This document shows, one piece after another, positions 55,553 through 61,719 of a stretch of 64,000 nt of DNA. Made by a program: the position numbers and the translations under genes. The notes beneath the pieces are model-generated. The model saw only the letters and a list, made by a program, of their open reading frames with translations, was not told where the DNA came from and searched no databases. The DNA is from Eubacteriales bacterium (GTDB lineage Bacteria > Bacillota > Clostridia > Oscillospirales > CAG-272). Within the stretch, counting starts at the first letter, position 1. Each line of letters opens with the position of its first letter. The stretch lies in contig JAXEKG010000007.1 of NCBI GenBank assembly GCA_034101145.1, positions 17,473-81,472 of the forward strand. The letters are read 5' to 3'.

Positions 55553-55835
55553 GCAGAGATAATAATCTCCGACCTCTATCTTATGGAAACAACCGAGAAC
55601 CAAGGCGTCAGCTGTTTTTTCTTGCCGTTTCGTAAATTTTTTGTGCCGTTGTTCTTCCCACGCCGAGCCGGGTTCCGCATTATTCCCGGATAAGTTCTTC
55701 TTTATCTATCAGGCGTATTGTCTCAAATTCGTCTGCTGCCGGAATAATCGGTTTGCCAAATGTGTCTCACATAATGGAGAATTAAAGAACTTCGGGAAAA
55801 CTGCATACTCTGCGGCATTTCGGCGGTCTTGACAA
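55553..55835 (-). pseudogene. DUF134 (UPF0251) family pseudogene
   Basis: Manual translation: LSRPPKCRRVCSFPEVL*...[38 protein letters not shown](frameshift)ADALVLG...GDYYLC. Confidence 0.8.
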
Positions 55836-56094
55836 TATAATTTTCTCCGTTATTTCTATAGTGATATTATATCAGAGTTTTAGGCACATGTCAATAACCG
55901 CAATAGATTGTTTACATATCTGAAATCATGTTGATAGTTTAAAAAAGGTTACGATGAAGCTTAATTGTTTTGCATATTGAGGGCTAATATCGCTTTCCGG
56001 CGGACGGTTGAGATAAAAAACTCCGGCGGACCTCAAAGATAATTGGCGAACAAAAAAGCGTTGAGAGACCCCAAAGGATTTCTCAACGTTTTTG

Positions 56095-56253
56095 TCAGTC
56101 TTCTTTACTGAACTGATCTTTTCCGACTCCGCACAGGGGACATTCAAAGTCCTCGGGTAGGTCTTCCCACTTTGTGCCCGGAGCGATACCGTTATCGGGA
56201 TCACCGGCGGTTTCGTCGTAGACGTATCCGCAAACATCGCAAATATATTTCAC
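56095..56253 (-). CDS. Rubredoxin (52 aa, GTG start, not in ORF track)
   Basis: [52 protein letters not shown]; AAGGAG RBS; terminator at about 56052-56093. Confidence 0.95.
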
Positions 56254-56717
56254 AGCATTTTCTCCTTTCGTTAATTATCTATTCCGCAAAGATTGGATTT
56301 TTTATTTTATAATGAATCAAAACAGCCTGTAAGTTGTGACAGTCAAAGCCGTTACACGTAAGGATTCTATGTAAGTGCTTTCTCCTTTTATCATTTTAGC
56401 GGCCTCACTTATATTATATCACAACCGTATGTTTTTTCGCAATTATCACATGTAATAAAATTGAAAAGAATATGTAAAATAATTTGAGCGCGTTTCAATA
56501 ATTTGTTATCTGCAAACGAGTGTTGCGGATTTTTGAAAACTATGGTTTACATAGTTCAGATTTTGAAAAATACAGTTTCGGCTCTTTTTGAAAATATTCA
56601 GGGACGAAAAAGGGGAGAAATCTCTCGAAATCTCCCTTTTTCTCTTGTTTTCCCGTCCAAATGTTTTCGGAACGTAAACATGTGTGTTCTGACCTTAATA
56701 GATGCAACAACGATACA

Positions 56718-57737
56718 TTAAAATAATGACGACAATAAACTATTTATTTTATCAAAAGTCTTTTTTAATGCTTCTTCGTCATCATCAATATTACCAAAGC
56801 AAATCTTTCCGATTTGTTTGTGCTTGTTTATATCCGTTTTATGATTTAAACTAAATCCATATTTTTTAAGAGATTGTTGCCATGCTTCGATGAATTGTGC
56901 GTTTGCTTGTTCGGTCAAGTTATAAAGCACCGCCCTTACTATAATACTGCATTTCCCACTACTTTTATCATATTTAAAATCTCTGCTTCTGATTTCAAAG
57001 CAAGGCAGATCTTTTTTGTGACCCTCAACAAAAAGTTTTATGTAATAGTATTCTTTTTGATAGCAGTTTATCTCCTTTTCTTCTGATATGCAAACAAGCG
57101 GGTGATAGTCGTTGAAAAAAGAATGCCAAGAGATCAAATTCCATTTACTGGGTGGCTGTTCTCTCCTTGCGGCAGAACGAATTTTTTTAATATATTCTAT
57201 GTAATAACCAAGAACTTCGTTGTCTGTATTTATATCCTTAAAAATATCGTATATTGAGTAAATGTCATAAGTTTTCCACCCTAAATCCTTGCTATGCTTG
57301 GCTTCCCACTCATCAATAATGTTAGTTTTATAAAAAACTTTAAAAACATTCCCACCCTTTTCAATATATCGTTCAACATCGTATTTCTTACGATTTTCTT
57401 CATTTCTCCAAAAATCATTATGATCGATTATTTCTTTTTCATATATCGCAAGTTGATCGTCATGTATTCCGCTTCCTGTCTTATCCTCAATAACTATCAA
57501 TTGCTCTATTCCATCAATCTTAAACTATATTGAAATATCAATGTTTTTCCACTGTGCAACAGTTGTAAGCTCGGTTATTGTTTTATCCTTGAATTTGTTT
57601 TCTGTAAAGCTATCAAATAATTTCCGACAAGCATTTTTAACACTCTCGTTTTCGCAATTGTAATTTTCAAACAGCCAGCGCAAAAAAGCGTCCTGCGAAA
57701 GCTCTTTTGTTGCGTAATCAAATAGGTTTTTCATCAT
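56718..57737 (-). pseudogene. PD-(D/E)XK nuclease interrupted by a single in-frame TAG (57525-57527)
   Basis: ORFs 57525-57737 and 56718-57500 are in frame: 'KELSQDAFLRWL...NIDISI*FKIDGIEQLIVIEDK'. Confidence 0.8.
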
Positions 57738-58710
57738 ATTTCTCCTTCGCTTTATTTATCGTCTCTTTTATCCTCTCGCGCAAGGCTACGGGTTTTAAGA
57801 CCTCGCACTCGTCCGTGTATTGCATCGCCCAAAAGAGCATTGCCGTAGGGCTTGATTTGAGAGTGATTTTGTAGAGGGTTTCTGTTTCAGTCTTGTCTAT
57901 CTTTATATCCTTGCCAAACCAATCTATAACTTGGTCGAGTATCCAATCCACCGCCAGCATTTCAATCGTTTCGGGCGTGTCGGAAAACATATAGGGCATA
58001 GCGGTAGTCAGGTTTTTATAGTTTATTCCGCCCTCAAAGCCCTCTACCTCGCTTATCGACACAGATGTCCTCGGAGATACGATCATGTTCGTAATTCTGT
58101 CAAGTCGGTGATAGGTCATATGCCCCCAATAACTGCTATAACCCATAAGATAGTAGCGTTGATTATGAAAAATAAGCTGATATGGAGAAATGCGCTGAAA
58201 CGAGGTTTTGTGCAGCTTCTTGTCCGCACCGTATTTATTATAATCGTATTCCACCATTTTGCCGTTTTCTATTGCCTCGTGAACTATGTCGATGCTATAA
58301 AACACCTCGGCATTGTCGCCCTTGTTAAAATCGTTCACAGCGTGAATGTGCTTGATATTTTTACGGAAATACTTGTTTTCCTCACTCGCAAGCTTTTCTA
58401 TCAAGTCGCGTGAATGCTTCACTCCTATATGCTGACTCGAAAGCACTCCGTCGATCAGCATACGCACCTCGGAGGGCTCGTATTTTCGCTCATTGAGATA
58501 CGCTCCGCGCTTGGTAGTCACAATATCGTAATCGGCTTCAAGCAACAGAGAAATGTTCCTGCCCACCGCCTTGCGCTCTATCTCGATACCGTAATTTTTA
58601 AGCAACAAATCGGCTATCTCATTGTGTGTCAAAGGATGCGCTTCGTCTGTATTCCTTTGCAGAATTTCAAGAATACGCAACAGCGCTAACTTTTTTGCCT
58701 CGCTTGCCAT
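57718..58710 (-). CDS. WYL-domain transcriptional regulator (wHTH-WYL-WCX)
   Basis: 'TDEAHPLT', 'IERKAVGRNI', 'SPYQLIFHNQRYYL', 'HRLDRI', 'DWFG', 'EVLKPVALR'; own promoter TTGCAA-17-TATAAT (58739-58767). Confidence 0.92.
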   Translation of the reverse strand: MASEAKKLALLRILEILQRNTDEAHPLTHNEIADLLLKNYGIEIERKAVGRNISLLLEADYDIVTTKRGAYLNERKYEPSEVRMLIDGVLSSQHIGVKHSRDLIEKLASEENKYFRKNIKHIHAVNDFNKGDNAEVFYSIDIVHEAIENGKMVEYDYNKYGADKKLHKTSFQRISPYQLIFHNQRYYLMGYSSYWGHMTYHRLDRITNMIVSPRTSVSISEVEGFEGGINYKNLTTAMPYMFSDTPETIEMLAVDWILDQVIDWFGKDIKIDKTETETLYKITLKSSPTAMLFWAMQYTDECEVLKPVALRERIKETINKAKEKYDEKPI

Positions 58711-58769
58711 AATATCACCGCCTTTCGCTTGTGATATTATTATACCATATTTGTCGCAACCTTGCAAGA

Positions 58770-59441
58770 CTATTTTCGTTTTACCCTTTGATGCTGAAAA
58801 TCAAATTCCACGGGTACGGCACGATATTTCTTCTTTCCTCGCTCATATATTCTGATTTCCTCTATATCTTCATCTGCTTTCTTAAAGTCTTCATAATAAC
58901 AGTTTCTATAAACTATCGCAGTCGCATCAAAATGCGGTATTGCCCTACTATGACGGGAAATTGACGGAGCATTCTTTTCTCTGTGCGTAAAAGGATTATT
59001 CCTTCTTTTCAGATGTGTAACAAATATAAATATTTTACCCCTTCGCCTTAATTCCTTCGCCAATTCGATAAGCTCTTTTGTTCGATCCTTAAAAAAGAGA
59101 TAGGGGGCTTCCTCATAAACTATAACGTCGTAATCTTTTTCTTCAATCACTAAAAGCAGACTTTCCTTATCTATTATAGGACGAAACGTAACTGTAAGAT
59201 TGCCATATTCTTCAAATATAGAAAAACTGCGAATACTATCGATGTTAGTCTTTTCTTTGATAATCTTTGCACGTTCAATATAACTTAAAAAAGCTCGGGT
59301 TTCGCTGTCAAAAATCAAGCATTTCTTCCCCTCGTCTAAATATTTATTTACGATGTTTGCGACAAGCGTCGATGCCCCCATAGCCGGACGGGCGGTTATA
59401 AAAAGGTTTTGATAGGGATATAACGGATCTTTTGACTTCAT
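58770..59441 (-). CDS. Degenerate DnaB-helicase C-terminal (RecA-fold) domain protein
   Basis: 'ITARPAMGAST' (cf. ARPAMGKT), 'ELAKEL', 'FVTHLKR', 'DATAIVYRNCYY'. Confidence 0.75.
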   Translation of the reverse strand: MKSKDPLYPYQNLFITARPAMGASTLVANIVNKYLDEGKKCLIFDSETRAFLSYIERAKIIKEKTNIDSIRSFSIFEEYGNLTVTFRPIIDKESLLLVIEEKDYDVIVYEEAPYLFFKDRTKELIELAKELRRRGKIFIFVTHLKRRNNPFTHREKNAPSISRHSRAIPHFDATAIVYRNCYYEDFKKADEDIEEIRIYERGKKKYRAVPVEFDFQHQRVKRK

Positions 59442-59546
59442 TTTTCTTCTCCTTTGTTTTTTTACATTGTATCACGCCGATTGTACCATTTTTGGTATAA
59501 TATATGTATTACAATAAAATCACAAAATCAAAAAGGAGAAATAACG

Positions 59547-59741
59547 ATGACAAAACAAGAATTACGAGACAGACAAGGAAGGCTTATCGGCAAGATCGAA
59601 ACCAACGGAAGTAAGGAGACTATTCGTGACGCACAAGGCAGACTTCTCGGCACGTTTGATGGTAAGCAAACAAGAGATGCGCAAGGCAGACTCGTAGGAA
59701 ACGGCAATTTGTTGACAACGCTGCTGATAAGAGGAAAATAA
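59547..59741 (+). CDS. Small repeat protein (RDxQGRLxG x3)
   Basis: AAGGAG RBS; MTKQELRDRQGRLIG...RDAQGRLLG...RDAQGRLVGNGNLLTTLL. Confidence 0.8.
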   Translation: MTKQELRDRQGRLIGKIETNGSKETIRDAQGRLLGTFDGKQTRDAQGRLVGNGNLLTTLLIRGK

Positions 59742-60066
59742 ACGTGAATACTTGTAATAGCAATCTTCTTTTTTTAAAATATACAATGTCTTCGCCTCCA
59801 TGAAAAAATCCGACCTGAACGGTAGGGTTCAAGTCAGACACATAAAATTAACAATTATTTTTTTAAGCAAAAAGGGCATATTTAGCGATAATAAAATCTC
59901 AAAATCCGCCCTAATTTTTGCTGTGCAGTGGTTCGAACCCCTGACACCCCTCGAAAACACCCCTTGACATCTATTTGTTTTCAACCTGAATTTTTCGATA
60001 AAAAAAGCCCAGACTCCTTATGGAATCTGGGTTTATTCGACCTGCATCTATTAAGGTCAGAACAGT

Positions 60067-60140
60067 TGGCTGCGGAACCAGGATTTGAACCCAGACGAAC
60101 AGAGTCAGAGTCTGCTGTGCTACCATTACACAATTCCGCA
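60067..60140 (-). tRNA. tRNA-Gln(CTG)
   Basis: TGCGGAA..., anticodon arm GCAGA-CT CTG AC-TCTGT, TTCAAAT T-loop, CCA. Confidence 0.96.
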
Positions 60141-60300
60141 TTGTTTGTACCAACGAAAGTTGGTGCTATGTAAACCCACATTTGTGGGGACTTTTCAGCA
60201 CATATGCTATTATAACAACAATGTAGTGATTTGTCAAGATATTTTTCTGTTTTTTTGGGTATTTTTCTGTTATTTTGATTTGTGCTTCACGTCTCTTGTG

Positions 60301-61719
60301 TCAATCTCTTTTTTTGAGGCGGAAGAAGAGACGTGAAAATGCTTTGCCGTTGAACGGTATTACGGGATACAGGTAGCTGTGCTCACCGTTTATAGTTCTG
60401 TTACTTACGAGAAGCAGGAATATTATGATAACGCCTGCAGCAAAGCCCCATATGCGGAAAAGCCATGTGAGCAAGAGGAGCATCATACGAAAGAATTTGA
60501 AAGCATAGCCGAGTTCATAGTTATGCTGTGTGAAACTTGCTATGGCAACGAGAGCCATATAGAATATTACCTCACCTGTAAACCAGCCTATTTTTACTGC
60601 CGATTCACCGAGTATGAGTCCTCCTATCACGCTGAGAGAACTTGATAGCATATCGGGTGTATTCATAGATGCTATTTTCAGTCCGTCTATTGCAAATTCC
60701 ACCAGGAAAAGCTGTGCTATTATAGGTATTTGCGGTCGATAATGCGGTATTATAAATGACAGAGCATCGGGTACAATATTCGGATACAAGGTAAGAAGAT
60801 ACCACAACGGTGTAAGAAACAGCGATAGCCAAAAAACAAAATGCCTTATAACACGCAGGTAGCAGCCTGTTATCGGCTGGAAGTAGAAGTCGTTCGTCTC
60901 CTGCATAAAATCGAAAATTGACGTAGGCAGTACCATGACTCTTGGAGAGGTATCGCATATTACCAGAACACGCCCCTCCAACAGTTCCGCGGCGGCGGCA
61001 TCCGGGCGCTCTACAGTGCGTATTTTAGGGAAGGGGTTATACCATTTCGTTTTTATCAGGCTCTCGGCGAGGCTCTCGAAACCGAGGGTTATTGACGAGA
61101 CTTTCATATTGTCTATCTTATCGGAGACATACTCTACGTATTTCTTGTTTGCACGGCCCTCCATATAGCATATGACGACGTCGGTCTTTGAGGACGAGCT
61201 TACGTTCTTATATTTCATGGTTAGTGACGTATCACGTATTCTGCGTCTTATCAAGGCGGTGTTGAAGATAAGCGTCTCGACAAAGCCGTCCTTCGCCCCC
61301 TGCATGACCTTATCGTTCTCCGGCTCCTCCGTTGTCCGAGAGGGGTAGGTTCTCGCATCAATTATTATACCTTTGCTACCAAAAGAGGAACCGAGCAAAG
61401 CGACAGAACCACTCATAACGGCGAGTATGAAATTCTCGGCGTCGTCTATTACGTCGACCTCTACGTATGGAATATGCTTTGCGGCAAATTCATCTGCCGG
61501 ATTCACTGCCGTTCCGCATAAATCTTTCAGGGAGAGAAAATACTGCATTATTTTTTGCATGCTTTCGTCTTTTATAAGTCCGTCAATATAAAACATCGTA
61601 ATCTCGTCGTTTTCGCCTATTTTCAGGGTACGCCTGATTATATCGAAATTCTCGGTTACACGGAGCTTTGAATCCATATAATCAACGTTATCCCTATATG
61701 AAGCAAACAGTTTACGCAT
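60301..61719 (-). CDS. GerA/SpoVAF family spore germination protein
   Basis: 'RTYPSRTTEEPENDKV..G.KDGFVETL.FNTALIRRRIRD', 'ERPDAAAAELLEG'. Confidence 0.92.
   Translation of the reverse strand: MRKLFASYRDNVDYMDSKLRVTENFDIIRRTLKIGENDEITMFYIDGLIKDESMQKIMQYFLSLKDLCGTAVNPADEFAAKHIPYVEVDVIDDAENFILAVMSGSVALLGSSFGSKGIIIDARTYPSRTTEEPENDKVMQGAKDGFVETLIFNTALIRRRIRDTSLTMKYKNVSSSSKTDVVICYMEGRANKKYVEYVSDKIDNMKVSSITLGFESLAESLIKTKWYNPFPKIRTVERPDAAAAELLEGRVLVICDTSPRVMVLPTSIFDFMQETNDFYFQPITGCYLRVIRHFVFWLSLFLTPLWYLLTLYPNIVPDALSFIIPHYRPQIPIIAQLFLVEFAIDGLKIASMNTPDMLSSSLSVIGGLILGESAVKIGWFTGEVIFYMALVAIASFTQHNYELGYAFKFFRMMLLLLTWLFRIWGFAAGVIIIFLLLVSNRTINGEHSYLYPVIPFNGKAFSRLFFRLKKRD

What the first reader, a model, noticed from the sequence alone, without database searches (positions are those of the whole stretch)
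56685..60064. Transposase-less 3.38-kb element with perfect 22-bp TGT...ACA inverted ends inserted 2 bp past the tRNA-Gln CCA
Seen: TGTTCTGACCTTAATAGATGCA (56685-56706) is the exact reverse complement of 60043-60064. The tRNA-Gln CCA ends at 60067. I found no duplicated tRNA 3' end and no clear 5-bp TSD (at most a 1-2 bp C/AC overlap). A partial sub-terminal copy (aatagatg) lies near 59967-59974. A minus-strand terminator just outside the far end (about 56606-56645) could be the original tRNA terminator, and the element brings its own at about 60001-60034. No recombinase is encoded inside. Inference: a non-autonomous, tRNA-targeted mobile unit moved in trans. It does not cleanly fit integrase islands (direct att repeats) or classic Tn7-like elements (5-bp TSD). 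An invertible segment is an alternative.
Basis: partly seen in the sequence, partly recalled or inferred. Interest (0 to 1): 0.85.

Follow-up and report, generated by a model that had tools for sequence, protein, structure and literature searches.

The report
Recombinase-less gene cassette at tRNA-Gln
A 3.4-kb block of likely anti-phage defence genes, bounded by two identical inverted 22-base sites and carrying no recombinase, sits exactly at the CCA end of a tRNA-Gln gene and belongs to a family of such cassettes that move between gut Clostridia by an enzyme not yet identified.

Summary
A perfect 22-nt inverted repeat (56685-56706 / 60043-60064) bounds 3.38 kb that abuts tRNA-Gln(CTG), 2 nt past its CCA.

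- The same element (95.4% identity, homology breaking at 56681) lies beside a different tRNA-Gln variant and a different distal flank in a human-gut contig. Contigs from other pig-gut and faecal metagenome runs show the same.
- The same arms bound unrelated cargo (sugar-metabolism, bactofilin and other genes) in about 40 gut and rumen Oscillospiraceae/Clostridia MAG loci.
- 22 distinct tRNA-proximal ("R") ends and 47 distal ("L") ends were found. One 1.47-1.49-kb cassette occurs in four contexts, and some loci hold tandem arrays.

Every junction fits tRNA…GC[CA]-NN-T-N-TTCTGACC…GGTCAGAA-N-A-NN-[CA]-native downstream. The CA of the CCA is repeated on both sides and there is no 5-bp duplication. 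That fits site-specific recombination with a 2-bp crossover (serine-type). A heterology-tolerant tyrosine recombinase is the main rival.

No recombinase was found in any annotated cargo except one unshared resolvase-like gene. None lay upstream of the tRNA, and no helper is conserved among host genomes, so the helper is unknown.

G000's cargo is a WYL regulator, a RecA/DnaB_C-like ATPase and a PDDEXK_4 nuclease with a strain-specific TAG. Inversion and Tn7-like readings are not supported.

The parts
56606..56645 (-). Hairpin plus T-run outside the distal end; candidate displaced terminator of tRNA-Gln
   Evidence: Folds at -21.7 kcal/mol. Not called by the consensus scan because its loop is too long. 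Related copies of this 70-nt stretch occur on other contigs.
56681..56682 (-). Distal copy of the CA dinucleotide (TG on the + strand); proposed crossover dinucleotide
   Evidence: Homology with L113 and with X3 record 8 starts at 56681. By definition of the class, all 47 L-type ends have TG here; 2 further L-like ends (L100, L111) have AA.
56683..56706 (+). L half-site: 2 variable nt plus the 22-mer TGTTCTGACCTTAATAGATGCA
56718..57737 (-). PDDEXK_4 nuclease gene, split by an in-frame TAG at 57525-57527
   Evidence: ORFs. The intact 341-aa homologue in L113 matches PF14281 at 28.1 bits, above the 22.3 cut-off, and the Atlas clusters agree. Base 57526 reads C (giving TGG, Trp) in runs X2, X3, X5 and X7 and in L113.
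57718..58767 (-). HTH-WYL-WCX regulator
   Evidence: PF13280 WYL, E 6.4e-9. PADLOC WYL model PDLC01652, E 1.2e-23.
58770..59441 (-). 223-aa P-loop ATPase, DnaB_C/RecA-like
   Evidence: PF03796 at 26.1 bits, just under the 27 cut-off.
59544..59741 (+). 65-aa repeat protein (beta-flower / RHS-repeat-like, below threshold)
59808..60042 (-). Conserved non-coding R-end interior ('Rint'). It holds terminator 1 (60008-60031), a 70-nt conserved block with a second AATAGATG copy and a tRNA T-arm-like stretch on the opposite strand, and a second hairpin (59808-59839).
   Evidence: Alignment of 21 distinct R ends, 18 of which share about 200 nt, with compensatory changes in the hairpins. Terminator scan.
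60043..60066 (-). R half-site: the 22-mer plus 2 nt (AC on the tRNA strand)
60067..60140 (-). tRNA-Gln(CTG). Its terminal CA (60067-60068) is the proximal copy of the crossover dinucleotide.
60209..60237 (-). Promoter-like site of the tRNA (12 of 12 consensus matches)

Best explanation
Window 56683-60066 is a non-autonomous, site-specifically integrated gene cassette.

Its two ends are inverted copies of one roughly 24-nt recombinase half-site: 2 variable nt, then T-N-TTCTGACCTTAATAGATGC. An excised circle would carry a palindromic attP of about 50 bp, L arm-NN-CA-NN-R arm. That site would recombine with the terminal CA of the encoded CCA of tRNA-Gln(CTG).

Integration leaves the tRNA intact. 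It places the cassette's own terminator directly behind the tRNA and pushes the tRNA's native terminator to the far end. Repeated integration at the same CA builds tandem arrays with the newest cassette nearest the tRNA.

The enzyme is supplied in trans and is not identified. The junction pattern is explained most simply by a 2-bp staggered crossover, that is, a serine recombinase, probably a large one given 24-nt half-sites.

The G000 cargo (WYL regulator, RecA-like ATPase, PDDEXK_4 nuclease, small repeat protein) looks like a defence module, and its nuclease is knocked out here by a TAG.

Shown: the boundaries, the target, the family, and mobility between hosts and contexts.
Inferred: the circular intermediate, the crossover chemistry and the function of the cargo.
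For: 1. Unit mobility.
- L113 (a human-gut contig) holds the element at 95.4% identity over 3441 nt. Homology starts at 56681 and runs into a different tRNA-Gln variant.
- X3 record 8 joins 56681 to another terminator. X5 record 18 (1850 nt) runs through the R end into another tRNA-Gln variant (4 of the 19 part-holding runs were laid).

2. Family.
- The 18-mer scan of genome contigs gave 39 stretches. The metagenome-contig scan gave 31.
- These collapse to 87 distinct sites: 22 R-type, 47 L-type and 18 others. Most of the others are in-gene chance hits or internal second copies.
- 12 of 401 sampled genomes of the family carry the site with up to 3 mismatches.

3. Target.
- 11 of 22 distinct R ends abut a real tRNA-Gln 3' end.
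- 7 abut tRNA-like pseudo-ends.
- 3 abut another cassette's L arm.
- 1 abuts something else.

4. Junction rule.
- R ends: CA in 20 of 22 (CC in 2), followed by CCTT (14), ACTG (6) or CCTG (2).
- L ends: TG, then TGTG (29), TCTC (6), GCTC (5), GCTG (3), TATG (2), other (2).
- The distal flank after the CA equals the native tRNA downstream sequence in G280 and G401 and in X3 compared with G401.
- Back-to-back L|NN-CA-CC|R junctions occur in L055 and L101.

5. Discrete cassettes.
- The DUF4004 + bactofilin cassette (1473-1486 bp) occurs in 4 contexts at 87-98% identity. In 5 of 6 pairs homology stops within 2-8 nt of the cassette boundary at both ends, or within 15 nt into a shared tRNA-like left flank; the sixth pair is given in the Against line.
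- A 4.4-kb AraC/oxidoreductase/ROK/SIS cassette occurs twice at 88.5% identity.

6. No recombinase in cis.
- Cargo ORFs annotated are metabolic, structural or defence-like.
- 0 of 10 upstream neighbours of the tRNA is a recombinase.
Against: - No cognate recombinase was found. G000 has 3 tyrosine recombinases, 2 serine recombinases and one IS3 transposase, and none has the 22-mer nearby.
- G000's large serine recombinase has only 43-48% identical homologues in 4 of 5 cassette hosts, one of them a truncated 299-aa frame, and 27% in the fifth.
- G240, a cassette host that is 96% complete, has no Resolvase-domain match at all.
- No circular or attP form was recovered. The attP-like pattern had 0 hits in metagenome contigs, and phage and plasmid collections gave no match.
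- No empty site of the same species was seen; the flanks were not covered in the four laid runs.
- Many cassettes show only an L arm. This is partly ascertainment, because the searches required an exact 18-mer.
- One bactofilin-cassette pair (L044 vs L055) aligns about 180 nt beyond the cassette's right boundary.
- The R end carries a second sub-terminal AATAGATGC copy, and some L ends carry a second full site. Such repeats are more typical of complex transposons or of arm-type sites of tyrosine integrases than of serine recombinases (recalled).
- The same cassette has ACTG (G000) versus CCTT (L113) beside its R arm. This hints that these 4 nt may be exchanged during recombination.
Confidence: 0.75

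Rival explanations
1. The cassette biology is the same, but the enzyme is a tyrosine recombinase. The inner 8-10 nt of each arm (TnTTCTGACC) would be core-type sites flanking a 6-bp overlap, NN-CA-NN (attB GCCAAC). The outer TAATAGATGC and its sub-terminal repeats would be arm-type sites. Heterology in the overlap would be tolerated, as recalled for Tn916/CTnDOT-type integrases.
For: - GCCAAC is found at both junction types: proximal in G000, and distal in G401 and L069.
- The dinucleotides beside the CA are either attB-like (GC, AC) or element-like (CA, CC).
- The 4 nt beside the R arm differ at 2 of 4 positions between two copies that are 95% identical.
- Sub-terminal repeats of part of the site exist.
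- Every host checked has tyrosine recombinases.
Against: - Most R junctions are hybrids (GCCA+CC, 14 of 22). With a 6-bp overlap these need patch repair or a crossover inside the overlap.
- In G000 the two junction hexamers differ at 4 of 6 positions (GCCAAC vs CACACA).
- Conserved arms of 22 nt are long for simple tyrosine core sites (recalled).
- G000's two non-Xer tyrosine recombinases (L075, L076), the two searched, are not conserved across cassette hosts: the best is 76% in one genome and 30-39% in the others.
Confidence: 0.3
2. It is a non-autonomous DDE transposon (a mini Tn7-like or IS30-like element) aimed at tRNA-Gln by a target selector. The CA would then be a 2-bp target-site duplication.
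For: - TGT…ACA tips in G000 and a 22-nt terminal repeat.
- Sub-terminal repeated partial sites.
- The R end is always proximal to the target gene.
- Insertion lies at a fixed distance from the tRNA body whatever the downstream sequence.
Against: - No 5-bp duplication in G000 (CCAAC vs CACAT) or G060 (CCACC vs CACAA).
- The tips are variable across copies: TG, TT or TC, and the 2 nt outside them also vary. This is unusual for DDE ends (recalled).
- No transposase-bearing copy with these ends turned up in the roughly 40 MAG loci, or in the 9 genomes searched whole by handle.
- The only rve protein in G000 is an ordinary IS3 OrfAB.
Confidence: 0.1
3. It is an invertible segment: the inverted 22-mers are sites for an invertase that flips the 3.4 kb.
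For: A perfect inverted repeat bounds the segment. G000 encodes a small serine recombinase with weak similarity to invertases.
Against: - 0 of 22 distinct R ends lie in the opposite orientation relative to the tRNA.
- Cargo differs completely between loci.
- Arrays of L ends in one orientation exist (L045, L055).
- No strand-changing joints appeared in the laid contigs. Contigs cannot show rare forms, so this point is weak.
- The small serine recombinase is not found in 5 other hosts.
Confidence: 0.03
4. There is no dedicated recombination. The tRNA-Gln downstream region would be a hot spot where cargo is swapped by homologous recombination, and the 22-mer would be some other conserved signal, such as an operator.
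For: - The tRNA (75 nt) plus Rint (about 200 nt) offer homology on one side.
- Many cassettes retain only one arm.
- No helper was found.
Against: - The distal homology is only about 22 nt.
- The distal flanks are unrelated in different hosts, yet homology breaks at the same base, 56681.
- The two arms are always inverted, point inward and sit exactly at the homology boundaries.
- A constant CA lies at both junctions.
Confidence: 0.07

Closest known systems
dif modules of Acinetobacter plasmids (modules flanked by inverted pdif sites, moved by host XerC/XerD)
   Same: Discrete gene modules without their own recombinase, bounded by recombination sites in inverted orientation, with varied cargo and shuffled between replicons. 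I saw only the search listing and abstracts of PMC6449649, PMC13141974 and PMC11705084.
   Different: - Here each end is a single 22-24-nt half-site, not a full 28-nt XerC-spacer-XerD site.
- The target is the CCA end of a chromosomal tRNA gene.
- The arms show no likeness to the dif consensus as I recall it, and no full site with these arms exists in G000.
- The enzyme is unknown.
SCC and ccr-less pseudo-SCC cassettes at the 3' end of rlmH (orfX) in staphylococci, moved by the large serine recombinases CcrAB/CcrC (recalled, not read here)
   Same: - One conserved attB at the 3' end of a housekeeping gene.
- Terminal inverted repeats.
- Tandem composite arrays.
- Many members lack a recombinase and depend on one in trans.
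- Firmicute hosts.
   Different: - The cassettes here are much smaller (0.9-4.6 kb two-ended units).
- The target is a tRNA CCA end.
- The only direct repeat is the dinucleotide CA.
- No recombinase-bearing member was found.
- G000's large serine recombinase matches the CcrB model only below its cut-off (95 bits against 900).
Integron gene cassettes (attC x attI, IntI)
   Same: Recombinase-less cassettes inserted one after another at a single platform site, newest nearest the platform, with very diverse cargo.
   Different: - No integrase gene lies beside the platform (0 of 10 upstream neighbours).
- Each cassette has two inverted arms instead of one attC.
- Cassettes carry their own promoters, regulators and terminators.
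- The platform is a tRNA gene.
Tn7-like elements, including tRNA-homing type V-K CRISPR-associated transposons (recalled)
   Same: TGT/ACA tips in G000, 22-nt end repeats with sub-terminal copies, R end proximal to the attachment gene, and tRNA genes as attachment sites.
   Different: No 5-bp duplication, variable tips, and no TnsA/B/C/TniQ genes in any member seen.
Classical tRNA-linked genomic islands and tycheposon-like elements (tyrosine integrase; direct repeat of the tRNA 3' part; recalled)
   Same: tRNA 3'-end targeting, tandem accretion, and cargo of defence and metabolic genes.
   Different: The ends are inverted, not direct. The repeat of tRNA sequence is only CA (at most GCCA). There is no integrase.

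Membership tests
Tn7-like transposon (mini or non-autonomous) | 5-bp target-site duplication | tested here: not met
   G000: CCAAC vs CACAT. G060: CCACC vs CACAA.
Tn7-like transposon (mini or non-autonomous) | Conserved TGT…ACA tips with several TnsB-type sites in each end | tested here: inconclusive
   G000 has TGT tips, but across the family the tips are TG, TT or TC. One partial second site lies in the R end, and a second full site lies in 3 L ends.
Tn7-like transposon (mini or non-autonomous) | Autonomous relatives encoding TnsB/TnsC/TniQ with the same ends | tested here: not met
   None among the roughly 40 MAG loci, and none in the 9 genomes searched whole by handle.
Integrase-type tRNA island | Direct repeats of 15 nt or more of the tRNA 3' end at both borders | tested here: not met
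   Only CA (in some copies GCCA) is repeated.
Integrase-type tRNA island | Integrase gene next to one border | tested here: not met
Xer-dependent dif module | Borders are full 11-6-11 Xer sites resembling the host dif | tested here: not met
   The borders are single 22-nt arms. No full site with these arms exists in G000. The host dif itself was not identified.
Large-serine-recombinase cassette (SCC-like) | Identical central dinucleotide at both junctions, with half-sites of about 24 nt | tested here: met
   CA at 20 of 22 R ends, and at all 47 L-type ends (so defined; 2 further L-like ends have AA). The conserved 18-22-nt arm starts 4 nt from it.
Large-serine-recombinase cassette (SCC-like) | A cognate large serine recombinase, in cis in some members or conserved in the hosts | tested here: not met
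   G240 has no Resolvase-domain match.
Invertible (phase-variable) segment | Both orientations present in populations or relatives | tested here: not met
   0 of 22 R ends are inverted. No strand-change joints in the contigs, which is weak evidence.
Integron cassette | attC site and an adjacent intI/attI platform | tested here: not met
   No integrase beside the tRNA in 10 of 10 loci tested. The ends are two inverted arms.

The most novel reading that the evidence does not exclude
Gut Oscillospiraceae carry an integron-like gene-capture platform anchored on the CCA end of tRNA-Gln(CTG). Self-contained cassettes, each with its own promoter and terminator, are bounded by inverted 24-nt half-sites. 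They are inserted, stacked and exchanged between genera by an unlinked recombinase, possibly host-encoded or of an undescribed type. A tRNA-Gln-derived structured decoy ('X') multiplies the landing sites.
Probability: 0.3. Interest if true: 0.8.

Novelty: new variant of a known kind. Interest (0 to 1): 0.66.

Why it matters
Recombinase-less cassette systems such as integron cassettes, dif modules and pseudo-SCC are major routes of gene flow, but they are known mainly from Proteobacteria and staphylococci.

This family would be a comparable route in abundant, mostly uncultured gut and rumen Clostridia. It moves defence, carbohydrate-use and envelope genes between genera, and at least one cassette occurs in both pig and human gut samples.

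It also defines a compact, palindromic, attP-like site of about 50 bp and a universal, precisely defined target: the CA of a tRNA's CCA. Once the enzyme is found, it could serve as an integration tool for organisms that currently lack genetics.

The tight pairing of 'insert at the CCA' with 'bring your own terminator' shows how an element can use a tRNA gene without harming it.

Tried and rejected
Helper hunt (all negative or unconvincing):
- Recombinase census of G000.
- G000's large serine recombinase, two of its tyrosine recombinases and its small serine recombinase, each searched in 5 cassette hosts. The only near match was 76% for one tyrosine recombinase, in G060 alone.
- Resolvase and Phage_integrase family searches in 5 hosts. 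These turned up a Resolvase-domain ORF inside G280's cassette, next to an HNH gene.
- That ORF occurs in 1 of 401 family genomes and in no other locus held. I therefore treat it as cargo.
- Upstream neighbours of tRNA-Gln in 10 loci: none is a recombinase.

Searches for a free attP or an autonomous copy:
- attP-like gapped pattern in metagenome contigs: 0 hits.
- 18-mer in viral contigs: 1 in-gene hit that lacks the junction features.
- R end against the phage and plasmid collections: no match.

Other checks:
- Xer idea: no full site with these arms in G000.
- Rfam: nothing for the ends or for X; only sub-threshold Gut-1 hits.
- Empty site: the closest relative sampled (G014, 72% identity) has other cargo after the tRNA. 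In the four laid runs the flanks of this species were not covered, so no same-species empty site was seen.
- My first reading, that the runs hold the flanks, was wrong. Laying the contigs showed that they hold the element.
- A diverged-arm element in G448 (13.4 kb) had no recombinase domain in the 10 ORFs tested.
- Literature: no description of this family was found with the term sets (listings and abstracts only). Supplements were not consulted.
- Not tried: structure prediction, fold search and complex prediction. There was no candidate partner to test.

Full report
**Observation**

The window holds a perfect 22-nt inverted repeat, TGTTCTGACCTTAATAGATGCA, at 56685-56706 and reverse-complemented at 60043-60064. 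There is no third copy with up to 3 mismatches in the window, against 0 expected from 100 shuffles. The 1.63-Mb genome has no further copy either, and the best other site has 5 mismatches, which is chance level.

tRNA-Gln(CTG) lies at 60067-60140 on the minus strand, behind a 12-of-12 promoter-like site. On the tRNA strand the junction reads …GCAGCCA-AC-TGTTCTGACC….

Inside the repeat are five ORFs, none with a recombinase domain:
- a nuclease gene in two pieces (70 aa and 260 aa, separated by an in-frame TAG);
- an HTH-WYL-WCX regulator;
- a 223-aa DnaB_C/RecA-like P-loop protein;
- a 65-aa repeat protein.

G+C content is 0.32-0.44 inside against 0.40-0.50 in the flanks.

**The arms mark a family tied to tRNA-Gln**

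With up to 3 mismatches the 22-mer occurs in 12 of 401 sampled genomes of the same family, in 11 of 97 genera; the reversed control pattern matched 4 times. An exact 18-mer scan of one genome per species gave 39 stretches. Nearly all are gut or rumen MAGs labelled Oscillospiraceae, Eubacteriales or Clostridia. A scan of metagenome contigs gave 31.

After removing duplicates there are 87 distinct sites:
- 22 'R' ends, each followed by a conserved interior;
- 47 'L' ends;
- 18 others. Three are internal second copies, three are L-like with an odd flank, and the rest are in-gene hits that lack every junction feature. About 17 chance 18-mer hits are expected in 596 Gb.

The 22 R ends always point away from a tRNA-like 3' end. 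Eleven abut a genuine tRNA-Gln(CTG), seven abut tRNA-Gln-like pseudo-ends, three abut another cassette's L arm, and one abuts something else. None is inverted.

**It is a discrete, mobile unit**

A human-gut metagenome contig (L113) carries the same element at 95.4% identity over 3441 nt. The alignment begins at window 56681 and runs on through the R end into a different tRNA-Gln variant. Its distal flank is a different terminator.

Of 19 public runs (12 studies) that hold part of window 55800-60800, I laid four. Their contigs cover the element, not this genome's flanks.
- X3 record 8 switches at 56681 to another flank.
- X5 record 18 (1850 nt, 61 differences) passes through the R end into another tRNA-Gln variant.

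The 30 nt beyond X3's L end are identical to the 30 nt that directly follow tRNA-Gln in G401. This is a filled-versus-empty comparison across genomes.

Other cassettes behave the same way:
- A 1473-1486-bp DUF4004 + bactofilin cassette occurs in four contexts at 87-98% identity. In 5 of 6 pairs homology ends within 2-8 nt of the cassette boundary, or within 15 nt into a shared tRNA-like left flank; L044 vs L055 runs about 180 nt past the right boundary.
- A 4.4-kb AraC / GFO-IDH-MocA / xylose-isomerase-like / ROK / SIS cassette occurs twice at 88.5% identity.
- Further cargos include GH10, GH20 and GH94 enzymes, an aldolase/DeoR operon, lipoproteins, and SHOCT and small membrane proteins.
- Arrays exist. 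L045 has four L ends in one orientation. L055 has one R and four L ends.

**Junction anatomy**

Read from the tRNA, every junction fits this form:

…GC[CA]-NN-T-N-TTCTGACCTTAATAGATGC…cargo…GCATCTATTAAGGTCAGAA-N-A-NN-[CA]-native downstream

- R ends have CA (20 of 22; CC in 2) followed by CCTT (14), ACTG (6) or CCTG (2).
- L ends, read inward, have TG followed by TGTG (29), TCTC (6), GCTC (5), GCTG (3), TATG (2) or other (2).
- Where two cassettes abut, the arms are separated by exactly this spacer: L055 CACA-CA-CCTT and L101 GAGC-CA-CCTT.

The only sequence repeated on both sides is therefore the tRNA's terminal CA. In G000 this is TG on the + strand, at 56681-56682 and 60067-60068, which makes the element 56683-60066. 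The 5-bp duplication expected of Tn7-like elements is absent, and the tips vary.

**How it most likely works**

Two inverted half-sites of about 24 nt around a fixed, non-palindromic dinucleotide is the layout of a serine-recombinase crossover site. The size resembles a large-serine-recombinase attP (recalled knowledge). A 2-bp crossover at CA explains every junction without hybrids:
- the two nucleotides beside each arm travel with the element;
- everything beyond the CA is host sequence.

A tyrosine recombinase with a 6-bp overlap (NN-CA-NN, attB GCCAAC) is the main rival. It is favoured by GCCAAC appearing at both junction types, by the sub-terminal AATAGATGC repeats, and by the ACTG/CCTT difference between two 95%-identical copies. 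It needs hybrid overlaps in most junctions, and 4 of 6 mismatches in G000. A DDE mechanism with a 2-bp duplication is formally possible but fits variable tips poorly.

The R end brings about 200 nt of conserved non-coding DNA, shared by 18 of 21 aligned R ends. It contains a terminator directly behind the tRNA, with compensatory stem changes, a 70-nt conserved block, and a second hairpin. The element thus replaces the tRNA's terminator, and the native one ends up beyond the L end. That displacement is shown in G280 and G401 and is plausible for the hairpin at 56606-56645 in G000.

**The helper is not identified**

- No cargo examined encodes a recombinase, apart from one Resolvase-domain ORF (with an HNH gene) in G280's cassette. 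That ORF is present in 1 of 401 family genomes.
- None of 10 genes upstream of tRNA-Gln is a recombinase.
- Four of G000's five recombinases (the Xer-like one was not searched) lack close counterparts across five cassette hosts, and none has the arms nearby.
- G240 carries an L-only cassette and has no Resolvase-domain match at 96% completeness.
- No attP-like site or autonomous copy was found in the metagenome, viral, phage or plasmid collections.
- Many R ends sit at contig ends, so larger elements may be hidden by assembly breaks.

**Cargo of the G000 copy**

The intact 341-aa homologue in L113 matches PF14281 (PDDEXK_4) above its cut-off, and the Atlas clusters agree. In G000 the codon at 57525-57527 is TAG. 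All four laid runs read C at 57526 (giving TGG), and L113 encodes Trp there. G000 therefore carries a nonsense allele.

A WYL regulator plus a RecA-like ATPase plus a PD-(D/E)XK nuclease is a defence-like combination. Only the WYL protein matches PADLOC models, so the defence function is an inference.

**Comparison and novelty**

The closest analogues are:
- Acinetobacter dif modules (listings and abstracts seen);
- ccr-less pseudo-SCC cassettes at rlmH (recalled);
- integron cassettes (recalled).

This family shares their logic: no recombinase, sites at the borders, and stacking at one platform. It differs in four ways: single inverted half-sites, the CCA of a tRNA as target, self-sufficient cassettes that supply the tRNA's terminator, and an unknown enzyme.

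The term sets retrieved no description of it (listings and abstracts only). I rate it a new variant of a known kind. The main open question is the recombinase.

Noticed in passing
L028 (G169), about 190 nt just downstream of the tRNA-Gln terminator; copies in L027, L030, L045, L049, L053, L059, L062 and others: 'X' is a structured element of about 190 nt. Its 5' end repeats the tRNA-Gln 5' acceptor strand. Its 3' end mimics the tRNA's T-stem and acceptor 3' strand (…CCCTAGTGCC…CA). Eleven distinct copies align with many compensatory changes. It has no Rfam match, and its 3' end serves as an alternative landing site for cassettes.
   Followed up: partly
L028, L030, L027, L032: immediately 3' of tRNA-Gln: The native tRNA-Gln terminator is a long palindrome. 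Its descending arm is the reverse complement of the tRNA's own 3' acceptor end plus CCA, and it co-varies with the tRNA in four genera.
   Followed up: partly
L004 2819-2995 (G014); L032 2230-2309 (G401): Sub-threshold matches to Gut-1 RNA (RF01706; 46.8, 45.2 and 26.3 bits against a gathering score of 50) in the repeats downstream of tRNA-Gln.
   Followed up: no
L027 5779-7981 (G280): This cassette encodes a 293-aa Resolvase-domain/HTH protein, a 173-aa HNH protein and a 268-aa unknown protein. Its L end has two full sites 114 bp apart, and its R-end 22-mer is deleted. The resolvase-like gene occurs in 1 of 401 family genomes.
   Followed up: yes
L123 1095-14455 (G448:C157): A 13.4-kb segment is bounded by diverged inverted arms (GTGTGGCCTTAATAGATG / ATGTTGCCTTAATAGATG followed by an Rint-like start), with a third arm 125 bp further on. 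The 10 ORFs tested show no recombinase domain. One 540-aa protein has a sigma-70 region-4 HTH and a nuclease-like C-terminus.
   Followed up: partly
window 56586-56657: The hairpin region outside the L end has 80-88% identical copies on another G000 contig (C8:23591-23658) and in five relatives. It may be a dispersed terminator-associated repeat.
   Followed up: no
G000 contig C5 (19.5 kb); L074, L076: Two tyrosine recombinases lie on one short contig. The 406-aa one is 76% identical to one of a tandem recombinase pair in G060:C127. This is possibly a separate mobile element.
   Followed up: no
G000 C7:28158: A palindrome, AGGACATAA-N10-TTATGTCCT, was found while looking for full sites. It is a possible dif-like site and is unrelated to the 22-mer.
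   Followed up: no
L108 3414-4331: A 0.9-kb two-ended derivative shares the L-end interior and part of the ATPase region with the G000 element. It is not at a tRNA-like flank.
   Followed up: no
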